IMG/VR virus record: IMGVR_UViG_2855946969_000005
Location: 1-64,000 of that record
Direction: 5' to 3' (one strand)
Source: a virus
Taxonomy: Duplodnaviria > Caudoviricetes
DNA: 64,000 bases
This document shows, piece after piece, positions 7,593 through 56,946 of this stretch. The stretch's first letter is position 1. Each line of letters begins with the position of its first letter. Under the pieces are notes generated by a model. The model was not told the DNA's origin and ran no database searches. It saw nothing but the letters and a program-made list of their open reading frames with translations. Made by a program: the position numbers and the translations under genes.

Positions 7593-8522
7593 TCAGGCCC
7601 GGCCCAGGCGCGCCTGCGCCGTCGTAGAAGCGCCCAGCGCGTTGCAGACGAACTCGCTGTAGAACTCGTTGCCCCGGGTATCCCCGACGTGATCGACGGC
7701 GAGCACCTTGTAGATCCCGTCCGCGGCGATGGTGCCGAGATTGGGTTCGATGTTTCGGACCTCACCACTGACGCTTAGATCGAACGCTGCGCGGTCAATC
7801 GACTTTTCGTCGATATGTACCCGGCCGTGGGCTTGGATGCGCGGGTTCAGGAGCGACCTGCCGATGATGCCGTTGTCGGTCTGCGTGGGGCGGCCGATCA
7901 TGCCGGTGTCGGAGTTCAGCACCACCGCATCCCCCGGCAGTGTCCCGCCCGCGGGCACCACGTTGAGACGCCCATCACGGATGCACCACGTGCATCCGAG
8001 CGACTGGGCGAGGCGGCGCATCGTATCGCGTGCCATGCCGAAGTGGACTTGGGCTCGCGGATCTTTCGTCTGGGCCAGGATCGGAGGGGCATACCCTGGG
8101 GATATGCCGTACTGCTTCATGGCTTTGACGACGAGGTCGTAGAGATCCTTGCCGGTCGAGTTGGCCGGCAACGCCCCCTTGATCGTAGCCTGTTGGTAGG
8201 CCTTCAGGCCGTCTTCTGCGAACAGGTCGACGTAAGTGTCCGTTGGGCTTTCGCGGCCACTATTGCGGGATCTGACATCACCCGTGAAGATCAGGCCGTA
8301 CAGACCCTCGTACCCAAGCTCTAAGCTCACGCGCCCCGAGCGCTTCGGCAAGGCCTGAACTGTGGCCTCGGAGAGGTTTGAGATGCGGATAACCGCGGCT
8401 CTCGGCGATTGAACGAACGGATCCCTGATCCTGAAGCGCACCCGGAACTCGGACAGATCCAAAGTGCCGCCTGAGCCGCCGCTCGCAGTGACCCGGCAAA
8501 CACGGCGGTACAGGCGCGTCAT
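7593..8522 (-). CDS. baseplate hub protein, copy 1
   Basis: I.NLSE, LELGYEG, IF.GDV, WCIRDG, TGMIGRP, GIYKV..V.HVGDTRG.EFYS. Confidence 0.8.
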   Translation of the reverse strand: MTRLYRRVCRVTASGGSGGTLDLSEFRVRFRIRDPFVQSPRAAVIRISNLSEATVQALPKRSGRVSLELGYEGLYGLIFTGDVRSRNSGRESPTDTYVDLFAEDGLKAYQQATIKGALPANSTGKDLYDLVVKAMKQYGISPGYAPPILAQTKDPRAQVHFGMARDTMRRLAQSLGCTWCIRDGRLNVVPAGGTLPGDAVVLNSDTGMIGRPTQTDNGIIGRSLLNPRIQAHGRVHIDEKSIDRAAFDLSVSGEVRNIEPNLGTIAADGIYKVLAVDHVGDTRGNEFYSEFVCNALGASTTAQARLGRA

Positions 8523-10935: not shown

Positions 10936-11355
10936 ATGCGTGCCTCTACCGCCATGCTCGCCTGCCTAACTGCCCTGGTCGCGGCTGAGCCTGTCCGCGC
11001 GCAAGGTGCCCTGCATCCAGACTGTCGATGGTCGAAGGGCATGCGTGCGGATCCAACTCGCGAGTGCCCCGGCGATCCGGTCCTGCCCGTAGAACTGCCC
11101 CGCTACGATGTAGAGGCCGCGTGCCGCCGGCAGAACTTCAACCCTTCAACGTGCGTCGAGTATGTCCAGCCCTACTACGACCAATTGAAGGAAGTTTGGC
11201 TGCACTTGGACGAGGACCTGAAACGGCGCTGCACTGAGAAGTACCGCGAGAACATCCACGCCCGATACGTTCAGATCCACGCCTGCATCGACGCCGAACT
11301 CACGAGGCGCGAGCATCAGGACAAGCAGCACAACCCGACGCGCTTCCGGTACTGA
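10936..11355 (+). CDS. exported Cys-containing hypothetical protein
   Basis: Signal peptide (MRASTAMLACLTALVAAEPVRA), 6 Cys in the mature part. Confidence 0.7.
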   Translation: MRASTAMLACLTALVAAEPVRAQGALHPDCRWSKGMRADPTRECPGDPVLPVELPRYDVEAACRRQNFNPSTCVEYVQPYYDQLKEVWLHLDEDLKRRCTEKYRENIHARYVQIHACIDAELTRREHQDKQHNPTRFRY

Positions 11356-11363
11356 CCTGCTCG

Positions 11364-11420
11364 GACTTCTCCTCCCCAGATTACCCCTTGTTCAGGTTCG
11401 CGCGTTATGGGTGAGCCATG
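11364..11420 (+). promoter_or_regulatory. repeated 54-bp leader before exported-protein genes, copy 1 of 4
   Basis: GACTTCTCCT..ATTACCC.T.GTT....TCGCGCGTTATGG...CCATG. Other copies start at 11807, 14905 and 32835. Confidence 0.75.
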
Positions 11421-11792: not shown

Positions 11793-11876
11793 TCCCGGGC
11801 CGACTCGGCTTCTCCTTCCCGCATTACCCTTCGTTGAGGATCGCGCGTTATGGAGAGACCATGCGCGCCTACGGCC

Positions 11877-12890: not shown

Positions 12891-13322
12891 GTGGGAATGA
12901 TAAACCGTGTCTCGAACCGGCGGGGGGTGCTTGCCGGGCTGGCGGCAGCACCCTTCGGAGGCGCCGTAGCCGCTGCTGTGGCGGCAGATCCTGATGCGAC
13001 CCTACTCGCGCTCGGAACCCGTTTTGAGGCCGCCTGGGCGCACGAGCGGAAAACGGACGCCCGATTCAAAGGCGACCTCTCGGCCGAGGCAGTCGCAGCC
13101 TGTGAGGCGGCGTACGCGGCCACGGGGCTGATCGCGGAAGAGATCGAGCCGATCCGCGCAAACACGCTCGCAGGCCTCTACGTTCGCGCCCGCGTCCTAC
13201 TCTGGTGCATGGGAAGCGATCCACTGATTGCTGAGCAGTTCTCAGACAGCCCGCCCGCTACCGACGTTCGAATGATCGTCAGCCTTGCGCAGGACGTGCT
13301 CCGGATCGGCGCCGCCCCGTGA
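12891..13322 (+). CDS. twin-arginine-like hypothetical protein
   Basis: NRRGVLAGLAAA...PDATLLALG...ANTLAGLYVRAR. Confidence 0.7.
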   Translation: MGMINRVSNRRGVLAGLAAAPFGGAVAAAVAADPDATLLALGTRFEAAWAHERKTDARFKGDLSAEAVAACEAAYAATGLIAEEIEPIRANTLAGLYVRARVLLWCMGSDPLIAEQFSDSPPATDVRMIVSLAQDVLRIGAAP

Positions 13323-13753
13323 CCTACGAAGAACTGATCGCCTCGCCGTTATGGGCGAGGCAGCGCCAGGAGGCGCTCGCCCGCGACGGCTTCCGCTGCC
13401 GGGGCTGCGACACGACCGAGGATCTTGAGGTCCACCACCGCCGCTACGGCGACCCGCTGGGGACCGAGACCGTCGACGATCTGACCACCCTCTGCCGGGA
13501 ATGCCACCATGCGATCACGGAAGTCATCCGCCGCCGCCGCTCCGCCGGACGCGCCCACATCGTCCCAGAAGCCGCACGCCGCATCCCAGGCGCTGCCGCA
13601 GGCTTCAGCGCCGAAAGGCTACCAGCGCCTCAACTTCAGGCTCACCGGCGTGTCCGGCCTGGTCATGCACAACGGCCAACTGGCGAACCCGCTGAACCCC
13701 TTCGCGAAGGCGCTGAAGGCGGTCTCGGGCAAGCGAGCGAAGACGGACGCTGA
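13319..13753 (+). CDS. HNH endonuclease
   Basis: RDGFRCRGC....LEVHHRRY...DLTTLCRECH. The C-terminal half overlaps the next gene in another frame. Confidence 0.8.
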   Translation: MTYEELIASPLWARQRQEALARDGFRCRGCDTTEDLEVHHRRYGDPLGTETVDDLTTLCRECHHAITEVIRRRRSAGRAHIVPEAARRIPGAAAGFSAERLPAPQLQAHRRVRPGHAQRPTGEPAEPLREGAEGGLGQASEDGR

Positions 13754-14183
13754 CTTCGAGGAGATGGCCCGGATCGAGTTCCTGGGCGGCCTCTACGTCG
13801 GCGAGGACGGCCCTTGCATCCCGGGCGAGTTGATCGAGGCCACGCTGATTTCGGCGGCCAAGAAGGTGAAGCGCGGCCCGCAGGCAAAGGCCGGCATCCT
13901 CTCGGATGGCAACCACCCGATCCTCTACGATGGCCCGCGCAACCCGGACGCCCTCTGGGCCGAGGAGCGCTTCCGGCTCGTGGCCGGCGTGAAGGTCGGG
14001 CAGGCTCGCATCATGCGGACGCGGCCGATCTTTCGCGAATGGTCGGCCGACGTGTTCGTGGATTTCATGCCCGACGCGCTCAACGCTTCCGAGGTGGAGC
14101 AGATGATGCGCACGGCGGGTTCGGTGATCGGCCTGGGCGATTGGCGCCCCAGGTTCGGACGGTTCACAGCCGAGAGGCTGTGA
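13509..14183 (+). CDS. stand-alone Cas7/RAMP-like RNA-binding protein (Vipr-like effector)
   Basis: First strand FRLTGVSGLVMHN, CIPGE.IEATL..AA, RTRPIFREW, and C-terminal Gly-rich loop AGSVIGLGDWRPRFGRF. GGY-NN arrays begin immediately downstream. Confidence 0.75.
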   Translation: MRSRKSSAAAAPPDAPTSSQKPHAASQALPQASAPKGYQRLNFRLTGVSGLVMHNGQLANPLNPFAKALKAVSGKRAKTDADFEEMARIEFLGGLYVGEDGPCIPGELIEATLISAAKKVKRGPQAKAGILSDGNHPILYDGPRNPDALWAEERFRLVAGVKVGQARIMRTRPIFREWSADVFVDFMPDALNASEVEQMMRTAGSVIGLGDWRPRFGRFTAERL

Positions 14184-14185
14184 AG

Positions 14186-14278
14186 GGCCTGTCGGGGCTG
14201 GTCACGGCTGGGTGCGCCATGGTCAGGCGAGGCGGGGCAAGGCAGGGGTGAAGGGCGGCTTCGGCCGTCCTTCCGCCT
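14186..14278 (+). ncRNA. putative guide RNA 1: 13 x 5-nt GGY-NN units plus terminal hairpin
   Basis: GGCCT GTCGG GGCTG GTCAC GGCTG GGTGC GCCAT GGTCA GGCGA GGCGG GGCAA GGCAG GGGTG, then hairpin GAAGGGCGGC-TTCG-GCCGTCCTTC and CGCCT. Confidence 0.8.
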
Positions 14279-14338
14279 GATGACTGTGAACTCCCATCGC
14301 GGATGAGCGCGATCGGCGTCCACAGCGTGGACGAGCCA

Positions 14339-14440
14339 GGCGGGCTAAGGCACGGCATGGCAAGCTGAGGCAAGACCGGGTTCGGCTTGGCAAGGCGAGG
14401 CAAGGGTGAAGGGGTCGGCTCGCGCCGGCCCCTTCCGCCT
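14339..14440 (+). ncRNA. putative guide RNA 2: 14 x 5-nt GGY-NN units plus terminal hairpin
   Basis: GGCGG GCTAA GGCAC GGCAT GGCAA GCTGA GGCAA GACCG GGTTC GGCTT GGCAA GGCGA GGCAA GGGTG, then hairpin GAAGGGGTCGGC-TCGC-GCCGGCCCCTTC and CGCCT. Two small hairpins precede it (14296-14313, 14317-14333). Confidence 0.8.
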
Positions 14441-14479
14441 TCCACCAGTCGGTAAGGAGAACGAGATCAGTATGCCCGC

Positions 14480-14896
14480 ATGGGCATTCTGCGCGGCCTC
14501 CTCTTGCTCGTCATCATCTTCGTGTTCGTGGCCATGCGCCGCGATCCGCCGGAACCTGATCCCGAGCCGGACCGCAACGTCACGGTCATCGAGAAGAACG
14601 TGCAGCCTCCGGCCGGGCGGCCCCCGCGTGCTGAGCCAAAGCCTCAGCCGCAGATATCGCCCACACCACAGGGCGCCGAGCGGCCCAAGCTTCAGTGCAT
14701 GATCACGCGAGCCGGCAATGGCTCGTACTCGTCCTATGATGGGGGCAAATCGGCGCTGGCCATCATGATGGCATGTCCGAACGACTATGCTGCGTGGGTC
14801 GCCTATTGTGAGACGAGCGGCCCGAACGAAGACGGGAGGTGCGATGTCGCTTTGGCTACCATGGTGCAGGTGATGCTGAAGCAAGCGGGGCGCTGA
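14480..14896 (+). CDS. membrane-anchored periplasmic hypothetical protein
   Basis: N-terminal TM segment, Pro-rich linker, 4-Cys domain. Confidence 0.65.
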   Translation: MGILRGLLLLVIIFVFVAMRRDPPEPDPEPDRNVTVIEKNVQPPAGRPPRAEPKPQPQISPTPQGAERPKLQCMITRAGNGSYSSYDGGKSALAIMMACPNDYAAWVAYCETSGPNEDGRCDVALATMVQVMLKQAGR

Positions 14897-14958
14897 CCCG
14901 CGCAGACTTCTCCTCCGGCTATTACCCTTCGTTGACGCTCGTGCGTTAAGGGCAGGCT

Positions 14959-15327
14959 ATGCGCGCTGCCCTCACCCTTATCTCCGTGCTGAGCCTAACC
15001 GTCAGCGCGCTAGCGGCTGAGCGAATCCCATCTTTTCCGAAGCGGACCAGTTACGACGACGCCCGAAATAGCCTGCGTGCGCTCGGCTGGGCGCCAGTCG
15101 TGCAAACGGGCCAGCGCTGTGGGACGGATGGTTGTTACGAGCGGTGCGCGCCAGGATTTGAAGCTCGGTGCCTCACCTACCCCGAGACGGCCATCTGCCG
15201 CGGGACAGGCTTGGCCGCCTGCGAGTTCCTGTGGAAGCGAAACGATGTGCTGATCGAGATCCGGACAATCGGTGAGGATGATCCGCCTACTGTCGCCGGG
15301 GTCAGTTGCAAGGTTAATTGTAGATAG
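14959..15327 (+). CDS. exported Cys-rich protein, candidate muramidase inhibitor
   Basis: Signal peptide, Y..AR..L...GW.P...C..YPE...C.GTG...C.F.W. Convergent with tape measure copy 2. Confidence 0.7.
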   Translation: MRAALTLISVLSLTVSALAAERIPSFPKRTSYDDARNSLRALGWAPVVQTGQRCGTDGCYERCAPGFEARCLTYPETAICRGTGLAACEFLWKRNDVLIEIRTIGEDDPPTVAGVSCKVNCR

Positions 15328-15358: not shown

Positions 15359-18280
15359 TCACGCATACCTGTTGTTGAAGTTCCCGATCAGATCGGACCG
15401 CTGGCGCGATGCTGCGCCTGTGATGTGGCTCGCAGCCTCCTTCGGGTCGGAGACGCCGGTCACGGTTGCGGTCGTTGTGCGCTGATCGTTGAACGTCCGC
15501 TGATCGTAGACCGTTTTTCCGGCTTTGGAATCACCCGCTCCCAGCGGGCTCGTCTGGAAGGCGCCGCCCGCTTTCCACTGTTCGGCCGTCAGGCCGCGCG
15601 GGTTGATCTTGCCGATGCTGCCCTCTGCCTTGCCGATCCACATTTCTGGATAAGCCACAAGCGTTTGCTCGACCTTTTCGGCAGTTTGAAGGGCGACTTT
15701 TCTCAGCTTCTCAACGGCAGCATTGACCTCGGGTGCTAGGCCAGAGCCCTGGCCAGCCGTGTTACCGGCGCCGAACGAGTCGTTGAACCTCTGTTCAAAT
15801 GCAGAGCTGCCTTTGGGCTTGTCTGGGTCCTGTACTGCGCTTTGCATCCGCTCCAACATGGTCTGCGGATCAATCAGTTTGCCGTCCTTGTCCCGCATCT
15901 CAAGGTGTAGATGTGGGCCAGTTGAACGACTGTCGGTCGGGCCAACAGCGCCGATCCGCCCCCCTCCTTTCACAGCGTCACCCTGCTTCACCGAAGGGAC
16001 AACATGTCTATAAGTAGACGACGAACCGTCTTCGTGCTCGATGGTAATGTCGCCATGCTCATTGAGCTTGACCACCTTCCCATCTTTCAGTGCTTTCACC
16101 CCGGTCCCTGGCGTTGCGGCGAGATCGACTCCATTGTGATGACGGACATCGCCGTGGATGGGGTGTTGGCGCGGTCCAAACTTCGACGTGATGCGTCCGC
16201 CACCTTCCAAGACGTTGGCGCCGTCGCCACCAGCCTTTCCATTCGACCCGGTTTGGCCCCCTGATCGATCATCCCGCTCAAGGGCTCGTCGCGCAGCCTC
16301 ACGCTCCTTCGGGTGCGTCTTGAACCCCTCCCAAGCACCTAGGCCCTGCTGTCGCGCGATCCAATGCGCGATCTGATCTTGTGTCTTTTCATCGAACTTC
16401 GTTGTGTTCGGGTCAAGGCCAAGCGCTTTGATGGCTTCCTTGAGCGTAGAACCAACGATTTGGTATCGACCGAGCGCCGACGAATTCGGATTCCCAGGCT
16501 GTTGGCGCATGAACTTGCCGAGGTCTAGGATCTCAGCAAGTGTCTTGTCCGTAAGTGTTTGCTCTTTACCGCCAGGGAGATATTTACCGTAGCCTAGAGA
16601 GGTGTTGTAACCATTCCCGGGCCGGCCGGCAGTACCTTCGGCTCGCGCAATGTTATCAAGGAGGCCATCTGGCGCGGGACCTAAGCCCAACTTCCCCTTC
16701 ACCCAGCCGAGACCACGGCTGACGATGTTGGGGCCGCGCTCGGCACCCTGCTGAGTCTTGCCGTAGATGCGGTCGGCGATGCCCGGGTCGAGCGTGCGGA
16801 CAACGCTCTCGTGCCAGGACCGCGAGCCGGCCCCCGCGTCGAGGATACCGGCATCGTTGGCCACCTTGGCCGCGACGCCGATCCCGAGAAGGCCGAGCAG
16901 CCACGTGGGCGGACGCATGGCGCCGAGCGTCCCGAGCAGGCCCACGACCTTGCCTAGGGGTGCCAGCACCTTGGCCGCCAGCACGACCGCGAAGGCCGCG
17001 AAGGCCGCGGTGAGACCGTCCTGGCCGGTGATCGCCTTGGCGACCCGGTCGAAGCCCTCCCAGAGGTCCTTCAGGGCGTTCAGCGTGGACTGGATCGCGG
17101 GCCACCACCGATCCCACGGGATCAGGGTGTCCTTCGCGCCCTCGCGCCACTTCTGGTAGTCGTCGTAGAGGACGACGATTGCGCCCGCGAGCGCGAGCAG
17201 GGCCGCGACGGGCCCGCTCTTGAGCAGGAGGAGCGCGGTCGCCACCGCTGCGATCGAGATCAGGAACTGCTTCGTCGCCGGGTCGAGGTCGTTAAATTTG
17301 CCGATCAGGTCGACGACGCGGGTGGCCAGGCGCAGCAGGGTCTCACCGATGCCGATGACCGCCTTGGCGATTCCGTCCGCGTTGGCGAGCAGGTAGTCCG
17401 TCAGGCGCCCGATCTGCGCGCCGAACTTCGTCGTCAGCGCGGCGCCGATGCGGGTGAACAGGATGTCGACGGCGGCCCACATGCGCCGCCACATATTCAT
17501 GAAGGCGGCCGAGTCCTTGGCCGCGCGGTCGGGATCGACGCCGGCCTTGCCGAGCATCTCCCGGTATTCGAGGACCGCCTTCTTGAACGAGCCGTCCTTC
17601 AGCGCGATCAGCGTGCGCTCGTCGATCCCGAGCGCGTCCGCGTAGGCCTTGGCCTGGAAGTGCGGCATCTTGGCGAACGCGTCGCCGAGCTCCATCGTGA
17701 CCTCGGTGAGATCGCGGAGCTTGCCGTTCTGGCGCGTGGCGACGCCGAGGTTCTTGAGCATCCCCTCGTAGCCGGGGGAGGAGCGCATGTTCTGCGCCAG
17801 CGCCTCGAGCGAGCCCGCCGCGCCCTCGGCCGTCGAGCCGAGCTGCGAGGCGGCGTAGCTGAACGCCTTGAGGTTTCCGACCTTGGAGTTGGTGCGCTCG
17901 GAGGCGTAGTAGAGCTTCTCCAGCCCGTCCGAGATCTTCACGACCGCGGCAGTGGAGGCGAGGGCCGCGGCCTCCAGGGCGACCGCCATCGCGGCCACGC
18001 CCTTCACGAAGGCGGTCGTGCGCTCCTTGGCCGCCTTCGCGGCAGCGGACTCGGCGGCCTCCCGCTCCTTGGCCCGCTTCAGCGCATCCTTGGCCGCGCG
18101 GACATCCGCGTCGGCCTTGATCTTGTTCGCTTCCTGCGCCGACTTCGCGCCCGCGAGCCGGGCCGCCTCGGCCCGCTTCTCGGCCTCGATGACGGCCTTC
18201 TCGTAGGCCTTGACCGAGCCCTCCGCCTTGGACTGGGAGGCGGTGTCAACGCGCCAGCCCAGGAGGTAGACCGCGAAGCG
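15359..18280 (-). CDS. tape measure protein copy 2 with lambda-lysozyme/GH104-like and M23 peptidase domains; canonical start codon missing
   Basis: Paralogue of 33314-36265. LDNIARAEGT...YN...SSALGRYQIV..TL...F....QD, plus M23 motifs HNGVD and TGPHLHLE. The frame is open to 18280, but the first GTG is at 18007. Confidence 0.8.
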   Translation of the reverse strand, partial: RFAVYLLGWRVDTASQSKAEGSVKAYEKAVIEAEKRAEAARLAGAKSAQEANKIKADADVRAAKDALKRAKEREAAESAAAKAAKERTTAFVKGVAAMAVALEAAALASTAAVVKISDGLEKLYYASERTNSKVGNLKAFSYAASQLGSTAEGAAGSLEALAQNMRSSPGYEGMLKNLGVATRQNGKLRDLTEVTMELGDAFAKMPHFQAKAYADALGIDERTLIALKDGSFKKAVLEYREMLGKAGVDPDRAAKDSAAFMNMWRRMWAAVDILFTRIGAALTTKFGAQIGRLTDYLLANADGIAKAVIGIGETLLRLATRVVDLIGKFNDLDPATKQFLISIAAVATALLLLKSGPVAALLALAGAIVVLYDDYQKWREGAKDTLIPWDRWWPAIQSTLNALKDLWEGFDRVAKAITGQDGLTAAFAAFAVVLAAKVLAPLGKVVGLLGTLGAMRPPTWLLGLLGIGVAAKVANDAGILDAGAGSRSWHESVVRTLDPGIADRIYGKTQQGAERGPNIVSRGLGWVKGKLGLGPAPDGLLDNIARAEGTAGRPGNGYNTSLGYGKYLPGGKEQTLTDKTLAEILDLGKFMRQQPGNPNSSALGRYQIVGSTLKEAIKALGLDPNTTKFDEKTQDQIAHWIARQQGLGAWEGFKTHPKEREAARRALERDDRSGGQTGSNGKAGGDGANVLEGGGRITSKFGPRQHPIHGDVRHHNGVDLAATPGTGVKALKDGKVVKLNEHGDITIEHEDGSSSTYRHVVPSVKQGDAVKGGGRIGAVGPTDSRSTGPHLHLEMRDKDGKLIDPQTMLERMQSAVQDPDKPKGSSAFEQRFNDSFGAGNTAGQGSGLAPEVNAAVEKLRKVALQTAEKVEQTLVAYPEMWIGKAEGSIGKINPRGLTAEQWKAGGAFQTSPLGAGDSKAGKTVYDQRTFNDQRTTTATVTGVSDPKEAASHITGAASRQRSDLIGNFNNRYA

Positions 18281-18282
18281 GC

Positions 18283-19209
18283 CTAGGCCCGCCCCAGCTT
18301 CGTCTGGGCTGTCGTAGAGGCCCCAAGCGCGTTGCAGACGAACTCAGAATACCAAGCCTCGCCTCTGGTGTCTCCGATGTGATTTACAGACGATACTTTG
18401 TAGGTTCCGTCAGTCGAGATCGTGCCGAGATTAGGCTCAGACTTGTTAACTTCGCCTTTTACTGAGAGATCGAACGGGGATAGATCAATTGACCTTTCGT
18501 CAATTACAACCTTGTGTCCGGCCTGGATCCTGGCATTAAGGAGGGATCTGCCAACGATGCCCTGCTCAGTTTGCAACGGTCTTCCTATGAGACCGCTATT
18601 AGAATTCAATACAACAGGCCCGCCGGGAAGCGCCTCGCCAGCGGGCAGTACGTTCAGTCTGCCGTCCCGGATCAGCCATGTGCAGCCGAGGGACTGCGCG
18701 AGCCGTCTCATCGTATCGCGGGCCATGCCAAAATGAACCTGCGCCCTGGGATCCTTGGTCTGGGCAAGAATCTTGGGGATGTTCCCGGCAGTGATGCCAT
18801 AGGGCTTCATCGCTTCAAGAACGATGTCTAGTATGTCTTTACCTGTTGAATTCGCCGGCAACGACTTTGACACTGAAGCGTACTGATACGGCTTGAGGCC
18901 GTCCTGTGCGAATATGTCAACGTATGTGTCTGTCGGGCTTTCGCGACCAATATTGCGTGCCCGAACCTCGCCCGAAAAAATTTGCGAGTAGAGTCCGGCA
19001 TACCCGGCGATTAGGGCAATTCTTCCGCCTCGTTTTGGTATGGACCGCGCCGTACTATCGGAGAGGTTCGTTATTCGGATGGCTGCAGCTCGCGGTGTCT
19101 GAACCACCGGGTCGGTGATCCGGAAGCGCACCCGGAACTCGGACAGGTCGAGCGTGCCGCCACCGCTGCCGACATGAAGCTGGCAGATCCTGCCGTACAG
19201 TTGCGTCAT
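18283..19209 (-). CDS. baseplate hub protein, copy 2
   Basis: Full-length paralogue of 7593-8522 (for example GGTLDLSEFRVRFRI, QVHFGMARDTMRRLAQSLGCTW). Lower GC than copy 1. Confidence 0.85.
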   Translation of the reverse strand: MTQLYGRICQLHVGSGGGTLDLSEFRVRFRITDPVVQTPRAAAIRITNLSDSTARSIPKRGGRIALIAGYAGLYSQIFSGEVRARNIGRESPTDTYVDIFAQDGLKPYQYASVSKSLPANSTGKDILDIVLEAMKPYGITAGNIPKILAQTKDPRAQVHFGMARDTMRRLAQSLGCTWLIRDGRLNVLPAGEALPGGPVVLNSNSGLIGRPLQTEQGIVGRSLLNARIQAGHKVVIDERSIDLSPFDLSVKGEVNKSEPNLGTISTDGTYKVSSVNHIGDTRGEAWYSEFVCNALGASTTAQTKLGRA

Positions 19210-28328: not shown

Positions 28329-29009
28329 ATGGGATCAATGAATCACGCTCCATCGCGCCGGGGCATGCTGGCGGGCCTCGCGGCCGCGCCGCTGGCCGCG
28401 CTGCCGATCGCCACGGCAGCATTCGCCCTGAACCCCGATACTGCCCTCCTGGCGCTCGGCCGGCGCTGGCGCGAGGCGGTTGCTGCACGCGAGGCCGTCA
28501 GCGAGCATGCGGATGCGTGTGCAACCGCCGCGCACCGCGCCGCGCCGGGACTTCCCGAGGCCGTGCTGTACCGGGAGGGCGATGACGCCCTCGACATCGC
28601 CCACTTCACCTCAGCCCGCGGCGACGGGCGGCGCTGGTACAGCGTCGGCACCAGCGCCTGTGACGGGAAGGCATCTTGGATGCGGGCGATGGTGCATGGG
28701 CCGCAGACGCCGCGCGCGGTGCGCGCGACCGAGATCGTCGCAGCGTTCGATGCGTGGCGCGCCGCCTGCCAAGCCACACACGACGCATGCGGGCTGACGG
28801 CCGCGGATTCGGCTTGGGAGGAGGCCTGCGAGCGCGTCAGCGAGATCGAAGACCACATCAGCGCAGCGACCGCCCACACGCCTGCTGGGCTTGCCGTGAA
28901 GGCGCGCATCGCTGAGCAGGACATAGAGGCCGGCAACAAGCCTGCCCAAGCCCTGCTGGCCGGTCTCGTGCGCGACGTTCTCGCCATCGCTGAACCGGCC
29001 GGATCGTAG
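28329..29009 (+). CDS. twin-arginine-like hypothetical protein
   Basis: SRRGMLAGLAAA...PDTALLALG...AHTPAGLAVKAR. Confidence 0.7.
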   Translation: MGSMNHAPSRRGMLAGLAAAPLAALPIATAAFALNPDTALLALGRRWREAVAAREAVSEHADACATAAHRAAPGLPEAVLYREGDDALDIAHFTSARGDGRRWYSVGTSACDGKASWMRAMVHGPQTPRAVRATEIVAAFDAWRAACQATHDACGLTAADSAWEEACERVSEIEDHISAATAHTPAGLAVKARIAEQDIEAGNKPAQALLAGLVRDVLAIAEPAGS

Positions 29010-29017
29010 GGGAGGGG

Positions 29018-29566
29018 ATGGCTATGGCCACCGCATCGCAACGAAATTCGTCGGCTGACGCTGTTGCCCAAGCCGCCCGCGCCGCGCTGAAAACGGCCAA
29101 TGGCGATGTCCGCACCGCTTCGGTCGCGCTCGAGGCGCGCGTGCGCCGGGATCGCGCCTTGCGGGACGCGCTCACCGATCCCTTGCTCGCCACCGCCTGC
29201 TACACGGCCGTGGCCGTTCAAGTCCGGCAGGCTCGGCGTTCGGTTTGGGCTGCACCCGCGGCGTCCCGCCAAGAGGCCGCGGCCGCGCCTCAGCGACGGG
29301 CCCCGGAGGATGCGCGCCGAGTCGCTCAGCTCGCGGCCGGCACGCTGGCCATGTTCCCGTTACCCGGCGGCAAGCGCCTCGGTGAGGCGACCCGGGAGGA
29401 GATTGCCGCGGCGGCCTCGTTCTACGAGGCGCAGAGCGCGGACATGGCGGACAAAGCCCGATGGCTCCGCCTGATCGCCCAGAGCGTGCCGCACGCGAAG
29501 AAGGTCGGCGACGTGCTCAACGAGCGCCGCTTGCGCGAATTGCAGACGGAGGCGCGTCGTGGATAG
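29018..29566 (+). CDS. hypothetical protein translationally coupled to the Tas-like gene
   Basis: FPLPGGKRLGEATREE. The stop overlaps the GTG of the next ORF. Confidence 0.65.
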   Translation: MAMATASQRNSSADAVAQAARAALKTANGDVRTASVALEARVRRDRALRDALTDPLLATACYTAVAVQVRQARRSVWAAPAASRQEAAAAPQRRAPEDARRVAQLAAGTLAMFPLPGGKRLGEATREEIAAAASFYEAQSADMADKARWLRLIAQSVPHAKKVGDVLNERRLRELQTEARRG

Positions 29567-32786: not shown

Positions 32787-32888
32787 GGGGACCGCACCGG
32801 CCGGTCGAGCGCCGGGACCGGCTAGACCCGCCCGGACTTCTCCTGCCGGCATTACCCTTCATTGACTCTCGCGCGTTATGGGTTGGCC

Positions 32889-33311
32889 ATGCGCGCCGTA
32901 GCCGTAATCACCATCGCTGGGCATCTCCTCTGGTCCATGTCGGCCGCTATGGCCGAAGATGCGCGCCCGCCCGGCATCTACCTGCGAGACACCATCCAGA
33001 CACCAGCGGGATCTGCAGCATTCTCGGATCTGCTAAAGCAAGAAGCGAACGTGCCGCCGTGGTTGGGGAAATTTATAAGGGATGGTGATGGCATTGATAT
33101 GCCATTCAGACTTGTTCGAATAGACGGCGAGAAACACTATTATTCCAGAGTATGCCGACCCCGCGCATGTTGGCAGGACGAGGTCAACATACTGTTTACC
33201 GCAGACATGGCTCATGCTTGGGGCTATCGCCTTGAGAACGGGAAGCCTCACTGGGTTGGCTACGTGCCCCCTACAGTGAAGCGCGCCATCCTCAAGGCGC
33301 AATCCGAATAG
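32889..33311 (+). CDS. Ivy-family lysozyme inhibitor-like exported protein
   Basis: Signal peptide, P.W, CRPRAC resembling the Ivy CKPHDC loop, LFTAD..HAWG, W.G..P. Convergent with tape measure copy 1. Confidence 0.7.
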   Translation: MRAVAVITIAGHLLWSMSAAMAEDARPPGIYLRDTIQTPAGSAAFSDLLKQEANVPPWLGKFIRDGDGIDMPFRLVRIDGEKHYYSRVCRPRACWQDEVNILFTADMAHAWGYRLENGKPHWVGYVPPTVKRAILKAQSE

Positions 33312-33313
33312 CA

Positions 33314-36265
33314 CTAAGCATATCGGTTCTGGAACTGTCCGATCATATTGGAACGTTGTCGATTCTCAGCGCCAATTACCTGATCTGCTGCGGTCTTCGG
33401 CTCAGAGACGCCATTGACGGTCGTCGTGCGAGTTCCCTCATTGAATACTCGATTATCAATGATGGTCTTGCCTGCAGATGTTCCGCCGGCACCTAAAGGT
33501 GCAGTCTCGAACGCCGGCCGCCGCCGCCAATTGTCGACGGCATCGAGACGTGAAGGACCCTTGCCGAGAGACGTTTCAGCTTGGTCCATCCAAGCTCGCG
33601 GATAGGCGATCAGGGTTTGCTCAACCTTGCCGGCCGTGTCGAGCGCTACACGCTTCAGTCGATCAACGGCAGCATCGACCTCAGGCGAGGCCGCACTCTG
33701 CTTCCGCTCCAGGGAGGACTGAGGATCGACTAAGTTGCCATCCTTATCCCTCAACTCGAGATGAAGGTGCGGGCCTGTGGACCTACCGTCAGTGGGCCCA
33801 ATTTTTCCAATTTGTCCGCCACCCTTTACCGCGTCTCCATTTCGGACGCTCGGCACAATGTGACGATATGTCGAAGAAGACCCGTCCGGGTGCCGTACGG
33901 TTACATCGCCTTCGCGGTTAATCGACACGATGCCATCGCGCATCGCCTGCACATCTGTCCCCTCGGGGGCTGCCAAGTCGATGCCGTTGTGATGCTTCAT
34001 CTCGCCTGTTTTGGGATGACGGCGCATCCCGAACCGGGAGGAAAGCCGGCCCTGGCCGCCTAGAGGATGATGCCCTCTCTCAACGGCGCCGCCCTCCTCC
34101 GGCTTGCCCTTGACGATTGGGAGCCAGCCTCGTGCGTGCGCGCCCCGGTTGCCCTCCTCGCCGACCCCATACCGCTCAAACTCGCGGATTCCCTCCATCG
34201 CGTGGTCAAGGTCGCGCGGGTTGCGGAGGATCTTGCCAGCTTTCTCGGTCCGCCGGCTGTCGTAGAGCGGGTCGCCGGGCTTGGCATCGAGTTCTGCGAT
34301 GGCGCCCTTCGTCTGCCAGCGTGCGTCGTAGGGGTCGCCACCCTGGTCCTCAATCCACTTCTTGATCTTGGGCCAGCGGTTCTTGTCCCATTGGAACAGG
34401 CCGGTGTGGCCGCCCGCCACCTCGTTGCGCGCACGAGGGTTGAAGGTGCTTTCGGTCTGTGCAGAGCCGAGCATGGCGGCGATCGCCTCATCGGAGTACC
34501 CTGCGGCGCTCAACTCCTCCATCATAGCCCGCGCATTCCCATTCTGCGCGAGCTTACCGATTCGGCTTGTACCGCCCCCAGCCGGATCCCCACCGAGTCC
34601 GACCTTCTCCTTCACCCAACCGAGACCTCGGCTGACGATGTTGGGCCCGCGCGCAGCGTCCTGCGAAGTCTGCCCGTAGATCCGATCTGCGATGCCCGGA
34701 TCAAGCGTGCGGAGAATGCTCTCGTGCCATGACCGGGAGCCGGCGCCGCCGTCGAGGATCCCATTGTCGTTTGCCACCTTCGCCGCGACGCCGACGCCCA
34801 GGAGCGCGAGCATCCACCCCGGGGGACGCATGCTCCCGAGGGAGCCAAGGAGGCCGACGACCTTCCCGAGCGGGGCCAAAACCTTCGCCGTGAGCACCAC
34901 CGCGAACGCTGCGAACGCCACGGTCAAGCCGTCCTGCCCGGTCAACGCCTTCGCCGCGCGATCGAAACCTTCCCAGAGTGACTTGAGCGCCGCTAGTAAA
35001 TTCTCAACGGCCGGGGCCCATTTGTCCCAATCGACAAGATTGTCTGTCGAGCCCTCGCGCCACTTCTTATAATCGTCGTAGAGGACGACGATGGCCGCCG
35101 AGAGCGCCAACAGAGCTGCGACAGGCCCGCTCTTGAGGAAAAGCAGTGCCCCCGCAATCGCTGCCATTTGCAGAACGAAGGATCGCGTACCGGGATCGAG
35201 GCGCGTAAATGCCTCCACCAAATCCACAACACGCTTCGCGAGCCGAAGGAGCGTTTCCCCAATGTTGATTACGGATTTCGTAATCTGATCGGCGTTGTCG
35301 TGTAGGTACTTGGTGAATCGTTCGATCTGCGCAGAGAACTTGTCGAATACCGCGCCACCGATCCGGATTTTCAGGCCGTCGATAGCCGCGAACATGCGAC
35401 GCATCGCATTCTCGAACACGACCGCGCCAGCCGCAGCCTTGTCCGGATCGACGCCCATCTTGGCGAGACTGTCGTTGTATTCCTTGGTGAGCTTATCTAC
35501 TTCGTTGCTGCGAAGCATGCGAACGAGATCTTCATGCAGACCCATCGCATTGGCGAAGGAATTGGCCTGATGCCGCGGCTGCTCTGTAAAAGCACGCTTC
35601 AGTTCTTCGATAAGCTTTACAGTGCCGATGAGGTCGCCATTGGCATCCCGCGTCTGGACCCCAAGGTTTTTCAGCATCGTCTCATAGCCAGGGGAGTCGC
35701 GCATGTTCTTGGCGAGCGCTTCGACTGACTGAATTGCAGTCTCAGACGATACGCCCAACTGCTCCGCCGCATAGGCGAACGCCTTGAGATCTTTGACGCT
35801 GCTGTTCGTGCGCTTGCTCGTATAGTACGCACGCTCCAAGCCGGACGCGATATTGTCCACAGCCGCCGTAATACCGACCGCGGCGGCCTGGATAGCCGCC
35901 ACCATCGCCAAGGAGCCCTTGACGAAAGCCGCAGTGCGGTCTTCATGGGATTGCGCAGCGCGCTTGTTGGCTGTGGTCTCGGTCTCCCGAGCCTCCGCGC
36001 TCGCCTTCGCGGCTTTCGCTTCGGCCGCCTGCTGGCGCTTCAGGTCGGCGATGTGGGCGGCGGCCCCCTTCGTCCTGACGCCGCGCTCGCGGTTGGTCTC
36101 GATGATCCGCTTCGCCGCGCCCTGCACGGTCGCCTTCGTGGCGCGCGACTCTGCCACCTCGACAGCGGACGCCACCTCGTCCGGCGCCGCCTTCGCGCGC
36201 CGGACGCTGGCCTCATCGACCTTGAAGCCAAGGGCGTAAAAGAAGTCCTGAAGTATGTTGTTCAC
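33314..36265 (-). CDS. tape measure protein copy 1 with phage tail lysozyme and M23 peptidase domains
   Basis: Follows the tail chaperones. GYS.EAIAAMLG....ES.FNP.A....G..GLFQW...R, HNGID and TGPHLHLE. Confidence 0.85.
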   Translation of the reverse strand: MNNILQDFFYALGFKVDEASVRRAKAAPDEVASAVEVAESRATKATVQGAAKRIIETNRERGVRTKGAAAHIADLKRQQAAEAKAAKASAEARETETTANKRAAQSHEDRTAAFVKGSLAMVAAIQAAAVGITAAVDNIASGLERAYYTSKRTNSSVKDLKAFAYAAEQLGVSSETAIQSVEALAKNMRDSPGYETMLKNLGVQTRDANGDLIGTVKLIEELKRAFTEQPRHQANSFANAMGLHEDLVRMLRSNEVDKLTKEYNDSLAKMGVDPDKAAAGAVVFENAMRRMFAAIDGLKIRIGGAVFDKFSAQIERFTKYLHDNADQITKSVINIGETLLRLAKRVVDLVEAFTRLDPGTRSFVLQMAAIAGALLFLKSGPVAALLALSAAIVVLYDDYKKWREGSTDNLVDWDKWAPAVENLLAALKSLWEGFDRAAKALTGQDGLTVAFAAFAVVLTAKVLAPLGKVVGLLGSLGSMRPPGWMLALLGVGVAAKVANDNGILDGGAGSRSWHESILRTLDPGIADRIYGQTSQDAARGPNIVSRGLGWVKEKVGLGGDPAGGGTSRIGKLAQNGNARAMMEELSAAGYSDEAIAAMLGSAQTESTFNPRARNEVAGGHTGLFQWDKNRWPKIKKWIEDQGGDPYDARWQTKGAIAELDAKPGDPLYDSRRTEKAGKILRNPRDLDHAMEGIREFERYGVGEEGNRGAHARGWLPIVKGKPEEGGAVERGHHPLGGQGRLSSRFGMRRHPKTGEMKHHNGIDLAAPEGTDVQAMRDGIVSINREGDVTVRHPDGSSSTYRHIVPSVRNGDAVKGGGQIGKIGPTDGRSTGPHLHLELRDKDGNLVDPQSSLERKQSAASPEVDAAVDRLKRVALDTAGKVEQTLIAYPRAWMDQAETSLGKGPSRLDAVDNWRRRPAFETAPLGAGGTSAGKTIIDNRVFNEGTRTTTVNGVSEPKTAADQVIGAENRQRSNMIGQFQNRYA

Positions 36266-56526: not shown

Positions 56527-56946
56527 CTACGCCGCGCTCGCCAGCCCGATCGTCCCCGCGATCCGCCGATGCGGCGCCCGGACCTCGGCCTTGGCCACGT
56601 GCCCCGCCCGCTTCGGCCCGAAGTTGGCGAACACGTCCTGCGCGCGGAAGGTCCCGCGCTCGGCCGGGTCGTCGCGGCGCGCCACCTCGTTCGCCCGGCG
56701 TCGCATGGCGCGGGCGAGATCGAGCTTGGCGTGGACGGGCTCGGCTGGGTCCGTGTTGCTGGCGAGGGCGAGCGCCTCGACCTGGTCGGCGAAAGCGCGG
56801 AGCTCGGCGACGTAGTCGAAGCGGCGCTTCAGGGGAGGGGCCACGTGCGGGCTCCGGTTTCCAGTGACAAAGGCGTTGGCAAGGCCGGACCCCAACTCGG
56901 CTATCGCACCCGCCCTTCGCCGATGCGAGTAGCGGGGTTTGATCAT
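56527..56946 (-). CDS. hypothetical protein (start uncertain)
   Basis: Protein-like C-terminal part of ORF 56527-57255. Confidence 0.4.
   Translation of the reverse strand: MIKPRYSHRRRAGAIAELGSGLANAFVTGNRSPHVAPPLKRRFDYVAELRAFADQVEALALASNTDPAEPVHAKLDLARAMRRRANEVARRDDPAERGTFRAQDVFANFGPKRAGHVAKAEVRAPHRRIAGTIGLASAA

What the first reader, a model, noticed from the sequence alone, without database searches (positions are those of the whole stretch)
14186..14250. Array 1 decodes to the baseplate-hub gene (codon positions 1-2, wobble base skipped)
The NN series is CT GG TG AC TG GC AT CA GA GG AA AG. Read as NNx triplets it spells L-G-(C/W)-T-(W/C)-A-I-(Q/H)-(D/E)-G-(K/N). The hub proteins contain LGCTWCIRDGR and LGCTWLIRDGR. 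Hub 1 sense strand (8000 to 7971): CTC GGA TGC ACG TGG TGC ATC CGT GAT GGG. Hub 2 (18690 to 18661): CTC GGC TGC ACA TGG CTG ATC CGG GAC GGC. In both, 8 of the first 10 dinucleotides match (17/20 nt), and the mismatches fall at the same units (6 and 8). Inference: the guide targets the hub allele of a competing relative. Skipping the wobble base would prevent synonymous escape, and self copies would be protected by amino-acid changes.
Basis: partly seen in the sequence, partly recalled or inferred. Interest (0 to 1): 0.93.

Follow-up and report, generated by a model that had tools for sequence, protein, structure and literature searches.

The report
Phage VIPR guide RNA matching hub gene
The repeat tract is a guide RNA of a recently described phage system (VIPR) that reads DNA two bases out of every three, and its closest matches are the phage's own two baseplate-hub genes, so it is a new example of a known kind rather than a new mechanism.

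Summary
Array 1 (14186-14245, + strand) is 12 GGY-NN pentamers. Read as NNx, its NN series matches both hub genes in frame at 17/20, or 18/24 and 17/24 over all 12 units. The match is modestly above chance: 3-5 of 1000 shuffles reach it for 10-11 units, 42-50 of 1000 for 12 units.

Three things strengthen it:
- The sister array hits both tape-measure genes at 21/26, reached by 0 of 1200 shuffles.
- Only a 1-nt skip gives outliers.
- The upstream gene is a Cas7/Csm3-like RAMP and is 39% identical to the phage SUSP1 gene that sits among SUSP1's GGY-NN arrays.

This is the VIPR system of three 2026 bioRxiv preprints. They already report the wobble-skipping code and its use against competing phages and satellites.

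The "competing allele" idea is only partly supported:
- One database hub protein, P0003, would match 19-20/24.
- No perfect or near-perfect hub target turned up in three DNA collections.

The unusual feature is that both guides have near-cognate sites in their own record, next to a hub/tape-measure cassette.

Verdict: a new member of a known kind, of moderate interest.

The parts
13319..13753 (+). HNH endonuclease ORF that overlaps the start of the vipr ORF; candidate accessory (vap-like) gene
   Evidence: Pfam HNH E 3e-5 and PHROG HNH families. A full-length homologue sits directly upstream of vipr in L013, L014/L015, L017 and L034 only, 5 of 27 related loci.
13509..14183 (+). vipr gene, a small RAMP / Cas7-like protein. 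Homology to relatives starts near residue 38, about 13620.
   Evidence: phrog_4652 E 3e-52. AlphaFold2 model mean pLDDT 93.2, pTM 0.86. Foldseek PDB top hits are Csm3 chains, E 3e-5, TM about 0.5, with 51 hits at E<=0.001. 39% identity, E 2.6e-36, to the SUSP1 gene at 28498-29058.
14186..14245 (+). vrRNA1 guide tract (Array 1): 12 GGY-NN units, NN = CT GG TG AC TG GC AT CA GA GG AA AG
   Evidence: It starts 2 nt after the vipr stop codon.
14246..14279 (+). vrRNA1 3' tail: GGGTG followed by a GC-rich hairpin (stem 14250-14273), with no U run
   Evidence: Fold. The same GGGTGAA-plus-hairpin tail, with different stem letters, follows Array 2, the L013 array and a second array in G001.
14339..14403 (+). 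vrRNA2 guide tract (Array 2): 13 units, NN = GG AA AC AT AA GA AA CG TC TT AA GA AA
14404..14437 (+). vrRNA2 3' tail: GGGTG followed by a hairpin
7965..8000 (-). Near-cognate site for vrRNA1 in hub 1 (LGCTWCIRDGRL), in frame and in the sense orientation; 17/24
18655..18690 (-). Near-cognate site for vrRNA1 in hub 2 (LGCTWLIRDGRL), in frame and in the sense orientation; 18/24
33434..33472 (-). Near-cognate site for vrRNA2 in tape measure 1 (GKTIIDNRVFNEG); 21/26
15482..15520 (-). Near-cognate site for vrRNA2 in tape measure 2 (GKTVYDQRTFNDQ); 21/26
7593..8522 (-). Baseplate hub gene 1
   Evidence: phrog_196 E 8e-57.
18283..19209 (-). Baseplate hub gene 2. It is 71% protein identity and 68% nucleotide identity to hub 1, and lies next to tape measure 2 and about 4 kb from the VIPR locus.

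Best explanation
The 13.3-14.44 kb stretch is a VIPR locus (Viral Interference Programmable Repeat). It holds an HNH ORF, a vipr gene for a small Cas7-like RAMP, and two vrRNAs. Each vrRNA is a run of GGY-NN pentamers capped by a GGGUGAA-plus-hairpin tail. Array 1 is the guide part of vrRNA1.

The mechanism is taken from the preprints and was not shown here. Vipr protomers polymerise along the RNA, hide each GGY and present each NN. The NN pairs then read double-stranded DNA two bases in, one base skipped.

Shown here: under exactly that rule, the best sites for vrRNA1 in the record are the conserved LGCTWxIxDG block of the two baseplate-hub genes. The best sites for vrRNA2 are near the 3' ends of the two tape-measure genes. 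All four sites are in frame, with the skipped base on the wobble position, and all are in the mRNA sense. The RNA could therefore pair with the template DNA strand but not with the mRNA.

Inferred: the resident copies are near-cognate, not cognate, at 71-81% of read bases. The cognate targets are hub and tape-measure alleles of a related competing phage or satellite. Binding silences them, or cuts them if the HNH protein is an effector.
For: (1) Family membership. The fold is RAMP/Csm3-like. The protein is 39% identical, E 2.6e-36, to the SUSP1 gene flanked by one upstream and three downstream GGT-NN arrays. That layout matches the preprint's description of the SUSP1 VIPR locus. Phage wV8 shows the same arrangement.

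(2) Arrays are conserved next to the gene. Same-strand arrays follow the gene in 26 of 27 related viral loci by a GGC caller, and none lie on the other strand. The 27th, L026, has a GGY-type tract at its contig end. In 83 distinct arrays (1017 units), G, G and Y stand at 97%, 96% and 95%, while the NN positions are free.

(3) The skip rule. Of skips 0, 1 and 2, only skip 1 gives outliers. Array 2 scores 21/26, reached by 0 of 300 shuffles. Array 1 scores 18/24, reached by 12 of 300. Skip 3 only finds the array itself.

(4) Array 2. It scores 21/26 at both tape measures, the next best position scores 16/26, and 0 of 600 plus 0 of 600 shuffles reach 21.

(5) Array 1. See the observation check.

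(6) Read and skipped positions behave differently. At the hub site the two paralogues agree at 21/24 read positions but only 4/12 wobble positions. At the tape-measure site the figures are 18/26 and 3/13.

(7) A better-matching allele exists at protein level. P0003 would match 19-20/24, and guide units 8 and 11 (CA, AA) spell the family's commonest residues, Q and K.

(8) Precedent. [quoted passage not shown]
Against: - Array 1 alone is weak when all 12 units are counted: 4-5% of shuffles reach it, and a local score gives 32 of 300.
- No cognate hub target was found. There were 0 exact hits, and only non-hub hits for the relaxed 20-base pattern in viral, genome and metagenome collections (6 hits). 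The 34 loci of hub relatives reach at most 16/24.
- A relaxed Array 2 pattern found 0 other alleles.
- Neither guide tells the two resident copies apart (17 against 18, and 21 against 21), so 'self protected, rival hit' cannot be read off this record.
- Array 2 at 21/26 (80.8%) on its own contig sits at the >=80% line. The preprint says no guide crossed that line on its own contig.
- Expression, processing and binding were not tested.
Confidence: 0.72

Rival explanations
1. The locus is a VIPR system, but the Array 1 / hub match is a coincidence. The natural target of vrRNA1 lies in DNA that is not in this record or in the searched collections.
For: 18/24 is reached by 42-50 of 1000 shuffled guides in the record. 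One of 82 guides from relatives reached 18/22 by chance in 655 kb. The two hub hits are one event because the genes are paralogues. No better hub allele was found at DNA level.
Against: The hit is in frame with the wobble skipped, and it lies in one of the most conserved hub blocks. Counting 10-11 units, the match is reached by only 3-5 of 1000 shuffles. The sister guide hits the hub's partner gene far above chance. P0003 improves the match at exactly the mismatched codons.
Confidence: 0.2
2. The guides act on the resident copies themselves, and imperfect pairing (71-81% of read bases) is tolerated. In this reading the element carrying VIPR damps tail-gene expression of the phage it sits in, or of its own hub/tape-measure cassette. 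An absent competitor is not the target.
For: Both guides have their best sites inside the same record. That is unlike SUSP1, whose four guides were reached by 94, 178, 113 and 200 of 200 shuffles on its first 46 kb. It is also unlike the closest relative's record, G001, at 294 of 300. Array 2 reaches 80.8%, the preprint's working threshold for natural targets. If the last unit before the tail is not read, the values rise to 18/22 and 21/24.
Against: The preprint reports that perturbing NN pairing abolished silencing and that no guide passed 80% on its own contig. Array 1 is at 71-75% over 12 units. If the HNH protein is a nuclease effector, self-targeting would be costly. Mismatch tolerance is not quantified in the passages I read.
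Confidence: 0.15
3. The pentamer tracts are not guides. They would instead be binding sites for a ring-shaped RNA-binding protein (TRAP-like, 5-nt period), a protein sponge, or packaging or terminal repeats beside the HNH gene.
For: This was my first reading. It rested on the 5-nt period with a fixed triplet, 10-16 units per tract, the terminator-like hairpins, and several related contigs ending near the arrays.
Against: The adjacent conserved protein is a RAMP homologous to SUSP1 Vipr, not a TRAP-like or terminase protein. The NN letters carry in-frame matches to genes under the 1-nt skip only. Contig ends at repeats are expected from assembly breaks.
Confidence: 0.02

Closest known systems
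VIPR system of Escherichia phage SUSP1 (bioRxiv 10.64898/2026.04.26.720920; structures in 10.64898/2026.04.26.720927, of which I saw the abstract only)
   Same: Homologous Vipr protein (39% identity). GGY-NN tracts of 9-16 units capped by a conserved 3' tail, on the gene's strand and beside the gene. 1-nt skip with the skipped base on the wobble. Phage-borne.
   Different: GGC-rich rather than GGT-rich units, in a record of 67.7% G+C. The tail is a simple GC hairpin after GGGUGAA, where SUSP1 is described as having a pseudoknotted tail. The upstream partner gene is an HNH ORF, and the SUSP1/wV8 locus has a small second gene after vipr. Both guides have above-chance near-cognate sites in their own record, and SUSP1's do not. 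I could not assign one of the preprint's seven types, because the defining figures and supplements are not readable here.
F5 satellites of SUSP1 and their solo vrRNAs (bioRxiv 10.64898/2026.10.15.759431; abstract, sections 6 and 17, and passages read)
   Same: Conflict between elements that share tail genes. [quoted passage not shown] Here a compact hub2 / tape-measure-2 cassette lies beside the VIPR locus, and both guides read hub and tape-measure genes. Codon-periodic reading is used against escape.
   Different: There the phage's guide targets the satellite recombinase, and the satellites carry guide RNAs without vipr. Here a complete vipr sits next to the cassette and the read genes are the structural genes themselves. 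I found no detectable sequence similarity between these tail proteins and SUSP1's (tblastn). I did not show that the cassette belongs to a satellite.
Class 1 CRISPR-Cas backbone (Cas7/Csm3 filament on crRNA)
   Same: RAMP fold; the best PDB matches are Csm3 chains. The protein polymerises along a guide, and periodic positions are excluded from pairing (every sixth in Class 1, as stated in the preprint).
   Different: No CRISPR repeat-spacer array and no other cas gene was seen. Tandem Repeats Finder gave no CRISPR-like rows, but I ran no dedicated cas search. The guide is built from 5-nt units with 2 read bases, and the target is read 2 bases of every 3.
TRAP (trp RNA-binding attenuation protein) binding sites; description recalled, not from a call
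   Same: Tracts of about 11 fixed triplets separated by 2-nt spacers on RNA.
   Different: The neighbouring protein is a RAMP, not TRAP-like. Here the spacers, not the triplets, carry the information.

Membership tests
VIPR (Vipr + vrRNA) | Small Vipr protein with a RAMP fold, related to described Vipr proteins | tested here: met
   AlphaFold2 model pLDDT 93.2. Foldseek PDB top hits are Csm3, E 3e-5. 39% identity, E 2.6e-36, to the SUSP1 gene within its array-flanked locus. tblastn finds 131 phage records, 77 of them Escherichia phages. The G-loop and thumb were not inspected residue by residue.
VIPR (Vipr + vrRNA) | Tandem GGY-NN (YNNGG) units, 9-16 per RNA, with conserved GGY and hypervariable NN, beside vipr | tested here: met
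   12 and 13 units starting 2 nt after the vipr stop. Family logo from 83 arrays: G 97%, G 96%, Y 95%, NN free.
VIPR (Vipr + vrRNA) | Conserved structured 3' tail after the repeat tract | tested here: met
   GGGUGAA plus a GC hairpin follows both arrays and two arrays in relative G001. The stems differ in sequence but keep their pairing. Only four examples were seen, and no covariation statistic was run.
VIPR (Vipr + vrRNA) | NN read DNA by the 1-nt skip rule, with the skipped base on the codon wobble | tested here: met
   Only skip 1 gives outliers: Array 2 is reached by 0 of 300 shuffles and Array 1 by 12 of 300. All four sites are in frame. This is a computational match only.
VIPR (Vipr + vrRNA) | vrRNA is expressed, co-purifies with Vipr, and the RNP binds or represses dsDNA | not testable with these tools
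   No RNA run was listed for this stretch. See Tried and rejected.
VIPR (Vipr + vrRNA) | Accessory vap gene in the locus | tested here: inconclusive
   The HNH ORF overlaps the vipr start and is conserved upstream in 5 of 27 related loci. A figure legend in the preprint names HNH domains among Vap proteins, but I could not see which type.
VIPR (Vipr + vrRNA) | Reported property, not a definition: no guide reaches >=80% NN match on its own contig | tested here: not met
   Array 2 reaches 21/26 = 80.8% at two sites of its own record. Array 1 reaches 75% and 71%.
CRISPR-Cas | Repeat-spacer array plus cas operon | tested here: not met
   Tandem Repeats Finder reports no CRISPR-like array in the window. 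Rfam finds nothing at gathering threshold. The neighbours of vipr are HNH and unknown small ORFs. No dedicated cas profile scan of the whole record was run.
TRAP-type RNA-binding attenuation | A ring protein of the TRAP family encoded or acting at the site | tested here: not met
   The adjacent conserved protein has a RAMP fold.

The most novel reading that the evidence does not exclude
About 24 kb lie between tape measure 1 and the Dit-like/plug/hub 1 genes. The most novel reading is that this stretch is a satellite-like or cassette-like mobile element lodged inside the tail operon of its helper phage. It brings its own hub / tape-measure pair and a complete, HNH-linked VIPR. The two guides are aimed at exactly those two structural genes in helpers or rival elements. 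On this reading the resident alleles, with Arg at hub codons 8 and 11 where the family has Gln and Lys, are escape variants. The record would then capture both sides of a VIPR arms race on one molecule, with a parasite rather than the phage carrying the full system.
Probability: 0.2. Interest if true: 0.65.

Novelty: new member of a known kind. Interest (0 to 1): 0.4.

Why it matters
The mechanism is therefore not new.

The locus is still useful in four ways:
- It extends VIPR to a GC-rich, HNH-linked clade with a simple hairpin tail.
- It points to tail structural genes (hub and tape measure) as the genes being read.
- It supplies four resident near-cognate sites at 71-81% of read bases. These are ready-made substrates for measuring how many and which NN mismatches VIPR tolerates, which is how such a system tells self from rival.
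- If the neighbouring hub/tape-measure cassette belongs to a satellite, this would be a parasite carrying the whole system.

Tried and rejected
Readings and searches that led nowhere:
- My first reading was TRAP-like binding sites, a sponge RNA or packaging repeats. I dropped it after the fold and homology results.
- Rfam at gathering threshold found 0 matches in the window. Tandem Repeats Finder did not report the arrays.
- A pattern taken from the array ends found 10 stretches in viral contigs. By eye none was an array.
- blastn of 14100-14480 against phages found one hit, inside the vipr coding end and not in the arrays.

Searches for a cognate target:
- All 12 units of Array 1, exact: 0 hits.
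- Units 1-5 and 7-11: 1 viral, 1 genome and 4 metagenome hits. None is in a hub gene; five have in-frame stops beside the site.
- A single-protein search found 6 hub loci. An alignment-based search found 34, all at 48% identity or less, with best scores of 16/24 for Array 1 and 18/26 for Array 2.
- A relaxed Array 2 pattern gave 0 hits.
- A protein search with the C-terminal 124 residues of tape measure 1 returned nothing at E<=1e-5, not even the paralogue. It is therefore uninformative.

Controls on relatives:
- 82 guides from relatives against 655 kb showed nothing above chance.
- Guides from G001 against this record showed nothing.
- tblastn of these tail proteins against SUSP1 1-46 kb gave no hit.
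- No sigma-70-like promoter and no U-tract terminator lies at the arrays.

Sequencing runs: no RNA holder was listed. One run of unknown kind (X1) held 7% of the sampled words. Its contigs carry a diverged relative of vipr with a different array, but the listing gives no usable cover of the hub target sites.

Supplementary tables of the three preprints (type assignments, target lists) were not opened. They may already list this clade or its hub and tape-measure targets.

Full report
WHAT IS THERE

The window is the first 64 kb of a 99,285-base linear virus record estimated to be about 90% complete. Its G+C content is 67.7%.

A 224-codon ORF ends at 14183. Two nucleotides later a strict 5-nt period begins: 12 units of GGY-NN (14186-14245), then GGGTG and a GC hairpin. 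A second tract of 13 units (14339-14403) ends the same way.

These are the only two clear tracts in the record, and both are on the + strand. A weak 8-unit run at 56713-56752 was not followed up. Rfam has nothing at gathering threshold, and Tandem Repeats Finder does not list the tracts.

THE OBSERVATION

Both hub ORFs match PHROG phrog_196 'baseplate hub'.

Scanning the window on both strands with the first ten NN as NNx gives 17/20 at the two hub sites. One position scores 14/20 and nothing lies between. Both sites are in frame with the skipped base on the wobble (19209-18690 = 519 and 8522-8000 = 522, both multiples of three). Both are in the sense orientation.

Shuffled guides reach the score as follows:
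- 10 units: 2 of 1500 and 7 of 1500 in the window, and 4 and 3 of 1000 in the whole record.
- 11 units (18/22): 5 and 5 of 1000.
- All 12 units (18/24): 42 and 50 of 1000.
- A local score that does not pick the length afterwards: 32 of 300.

The two hub hits are paralogous and count once. On its own, then, the match is suggestive.

WHAT IT IS

I first read the tracts as binding sites for a ring protein, with a fixed triplet every 5 nt. Homologues of the upstream protein gave 27 viral loci. Same-strand tracts follow the gene in 26 of them by a GGC caller, with none on the other strand. The 27th, L026, has a GGY-type tract at its contig end. Some loci carry up to ten tracts with conserved spacers.

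In 83 distinct tracts (1017 units) the first three positions are G 97%, G 96% and C/T 95%. The last two are free and purine- and A-rich, with TA the rarest dinucleotide, as expected of codon positions 1 and 2.

A full-text search then turned up bioRxiv 10.64898/2026.04.26.720920. It describes VIPR as follows:
- A phage-borne ancestral RAMP (Vipr) works with vrRNAs of 9-16 GGY/NN units and a conserved 3' tail.
- The NN pair with double-stranded DNA while one target base is skipped.
- The skipped base falls mostly on the wobble position.
- Natural targets lie in competing satellites and prophages.

Two companion preprints add more. One gives the filament/triplex structure (10.64898/2026.04.26.720927, abstract only). 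The other gives the biology: codon-periodic reading blocks escape, and satellites answer with solo guide RNAs (10.64898/2026.10.15.759431).

MEMBERSHIP

- The protein model is confident (pLDDT 93.2). Its best PDB matches are Csm3 chains of type III CRISPR complexes (E 3e-5, TM about 0.5).
- It is 39% identical (E 2.6e-36) to a SUSP1 gene. That gene has one GGT-NN tract upstream and three downstream, the layout the preprint gives for SUSP1. Phage wV8 shows the same arrangement.
- The tail here is a simple hairpin after GGGUGAA. Its stem sequence differs between the two tracts and two tracts of the closest relative's record, but pairing is kept.
- An HNH ORF overlaps the start of vipr. It is conserved there in 5 of 27 loci, the closest clade.

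THE GUIDE READING

I repeated the preprint's test on this record. With 0, 1, 2 or 3 skipped bases, only the 1-nt skip gives outliers; the 3-nt skip merely finds the tract itself.

Array 2 scores 21/26 at both tape-measure genes (33472-33434 and 15520-15482). The next best position scores 16/26, and none of 600 unit-order and 600 base shuffles reaches 21. It lifts the Array 1 reading, because two guides of one locus have their best sites in the two partner tail genes, all in frame.

At the hub site the two paralogues agree at 21/24 read positions but only 4/12 skipped positions. That is why one guide fits both.

Because the guides have mRNA polarity, they could pair with template-strand DNA, not with the mRNA. 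This fits DNA recognition.

COMPETITOR OR SELF

The resident sites are near-cognate: 17/24 and 18/24 for the hubs, and 21/26 twice for the tape measures.

Among 74 hub homologues, P0003 (69% identical to hub 2) reads LGCTWKIQDGKL and would match 19-20/24. Guide units 8 and 11 spell Q and K, the commonest residues in the family. Only the two resident hubs have Arg at both places.

That fits escape by conservative changes, but it is protein-level evidence from one sequence, and its DNA could not be fetched. No cognate DNA target was found in any collection I could scan.

Neither guide discriminates between the two resident copies. The alternative, that the near-cognate resident sites are themselves bound, cannot be excluded. 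SUSP1's four guides and the closest relative's guide show no above-chance hit in their own records. Array 2 touches the preprint's 80% line on its own contig.

CONTEXT

In SUSP1 the tape measure, the next two genes and the hub are contiguous. Here about 24 kb separate tape measure 1 (33314-36265) from the Dit-like, plug and hub 1 genes (9530-7593).

That stretch holds:
- a compact cassette, 19830-15359, of an unknown ORF, hub 2 and tape measure 2 (50% identical to tape measure 1; its frame is open into the end of hub 2);
- the VIPR locus;
- assorted accessory genes.

[quoted passage not shown] The resemblance is a lead. I did not show that the stretch is mobile, and the record could be misassembled.

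VERDICT

The competitor-allele inference is plausible but unproven.

Noticed in passing
window 9600-33300: About 24 kb lie between tape measure 1 and the Dit-like/plug/hub 1 genes, which are adjacent in SUSP1. The stretch carries a second, compact hub 2 / tape-measure 2 cassette, the VIPR locus, DUF4238 ORFs, an IS110-like transposase-like ORF and a GIY-YIG+HTH ORF. It may be a satellite-like insert or an assembly artefact.
   Followed up: partly
window 18007-18343: The tape measure 2 frame stays open upstream to 18343 and overlaps the end of hub 2. There is no ATG/GTG/TTG before 18007. Even so, the protein aligns with tape measure 1 from residue 10 onward (49.8% identity over 1027 columns).
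   Followed up: partly
window 13509-13753: The HNH ORF and the vipr ORF overlap by 245 nt in different frames. Vipr homologues outside the closest clade begin to align only near residue 38. The same overlap exists in L013. Which frame is translated there, or whether a fusion is made, remains open.
   Followed up: partly
L091-L096 (G001), 74371-74450: The closest relative's record has a 16-unit tract with the same GGGTGAA-plus-hairpin tail, 19 kb away from its vipr. This is a candidate solo vrRNA. An 11-unit tract also lies on the other strand at 87364-87310.
   Followed up: partly
L018 1-1650: One related contig end carries ten tracts of 11-16 units around vipr, separated by a near-identical 24-nt spacer. 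Several related contigs end in or near their tracts, probably because assemblies break at repeats.
   Followed up: no
window 11354-11420, 11804-11869, 14907-14966, 32825-32897: A repeat of about 60 nt (78-84% identity) recurs before small + strand ORFs on both sides of the VIPR locus and near tape measure 1.
   Followed up: no
window 56713-56752: A weak 8-unit GGY-NN run (5 exact units) lies on the + strand inside a region coding on the - strand. It is probably chance.
   Followed up: no
window 13320-14277 (run X1): A public run holds a 1461-base contig with a diverged vipr relative (84 differences, 17 gaps). Its array region differs by many insertions, so a related VIPR with other guides exists in that sample.
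   Followed up: no
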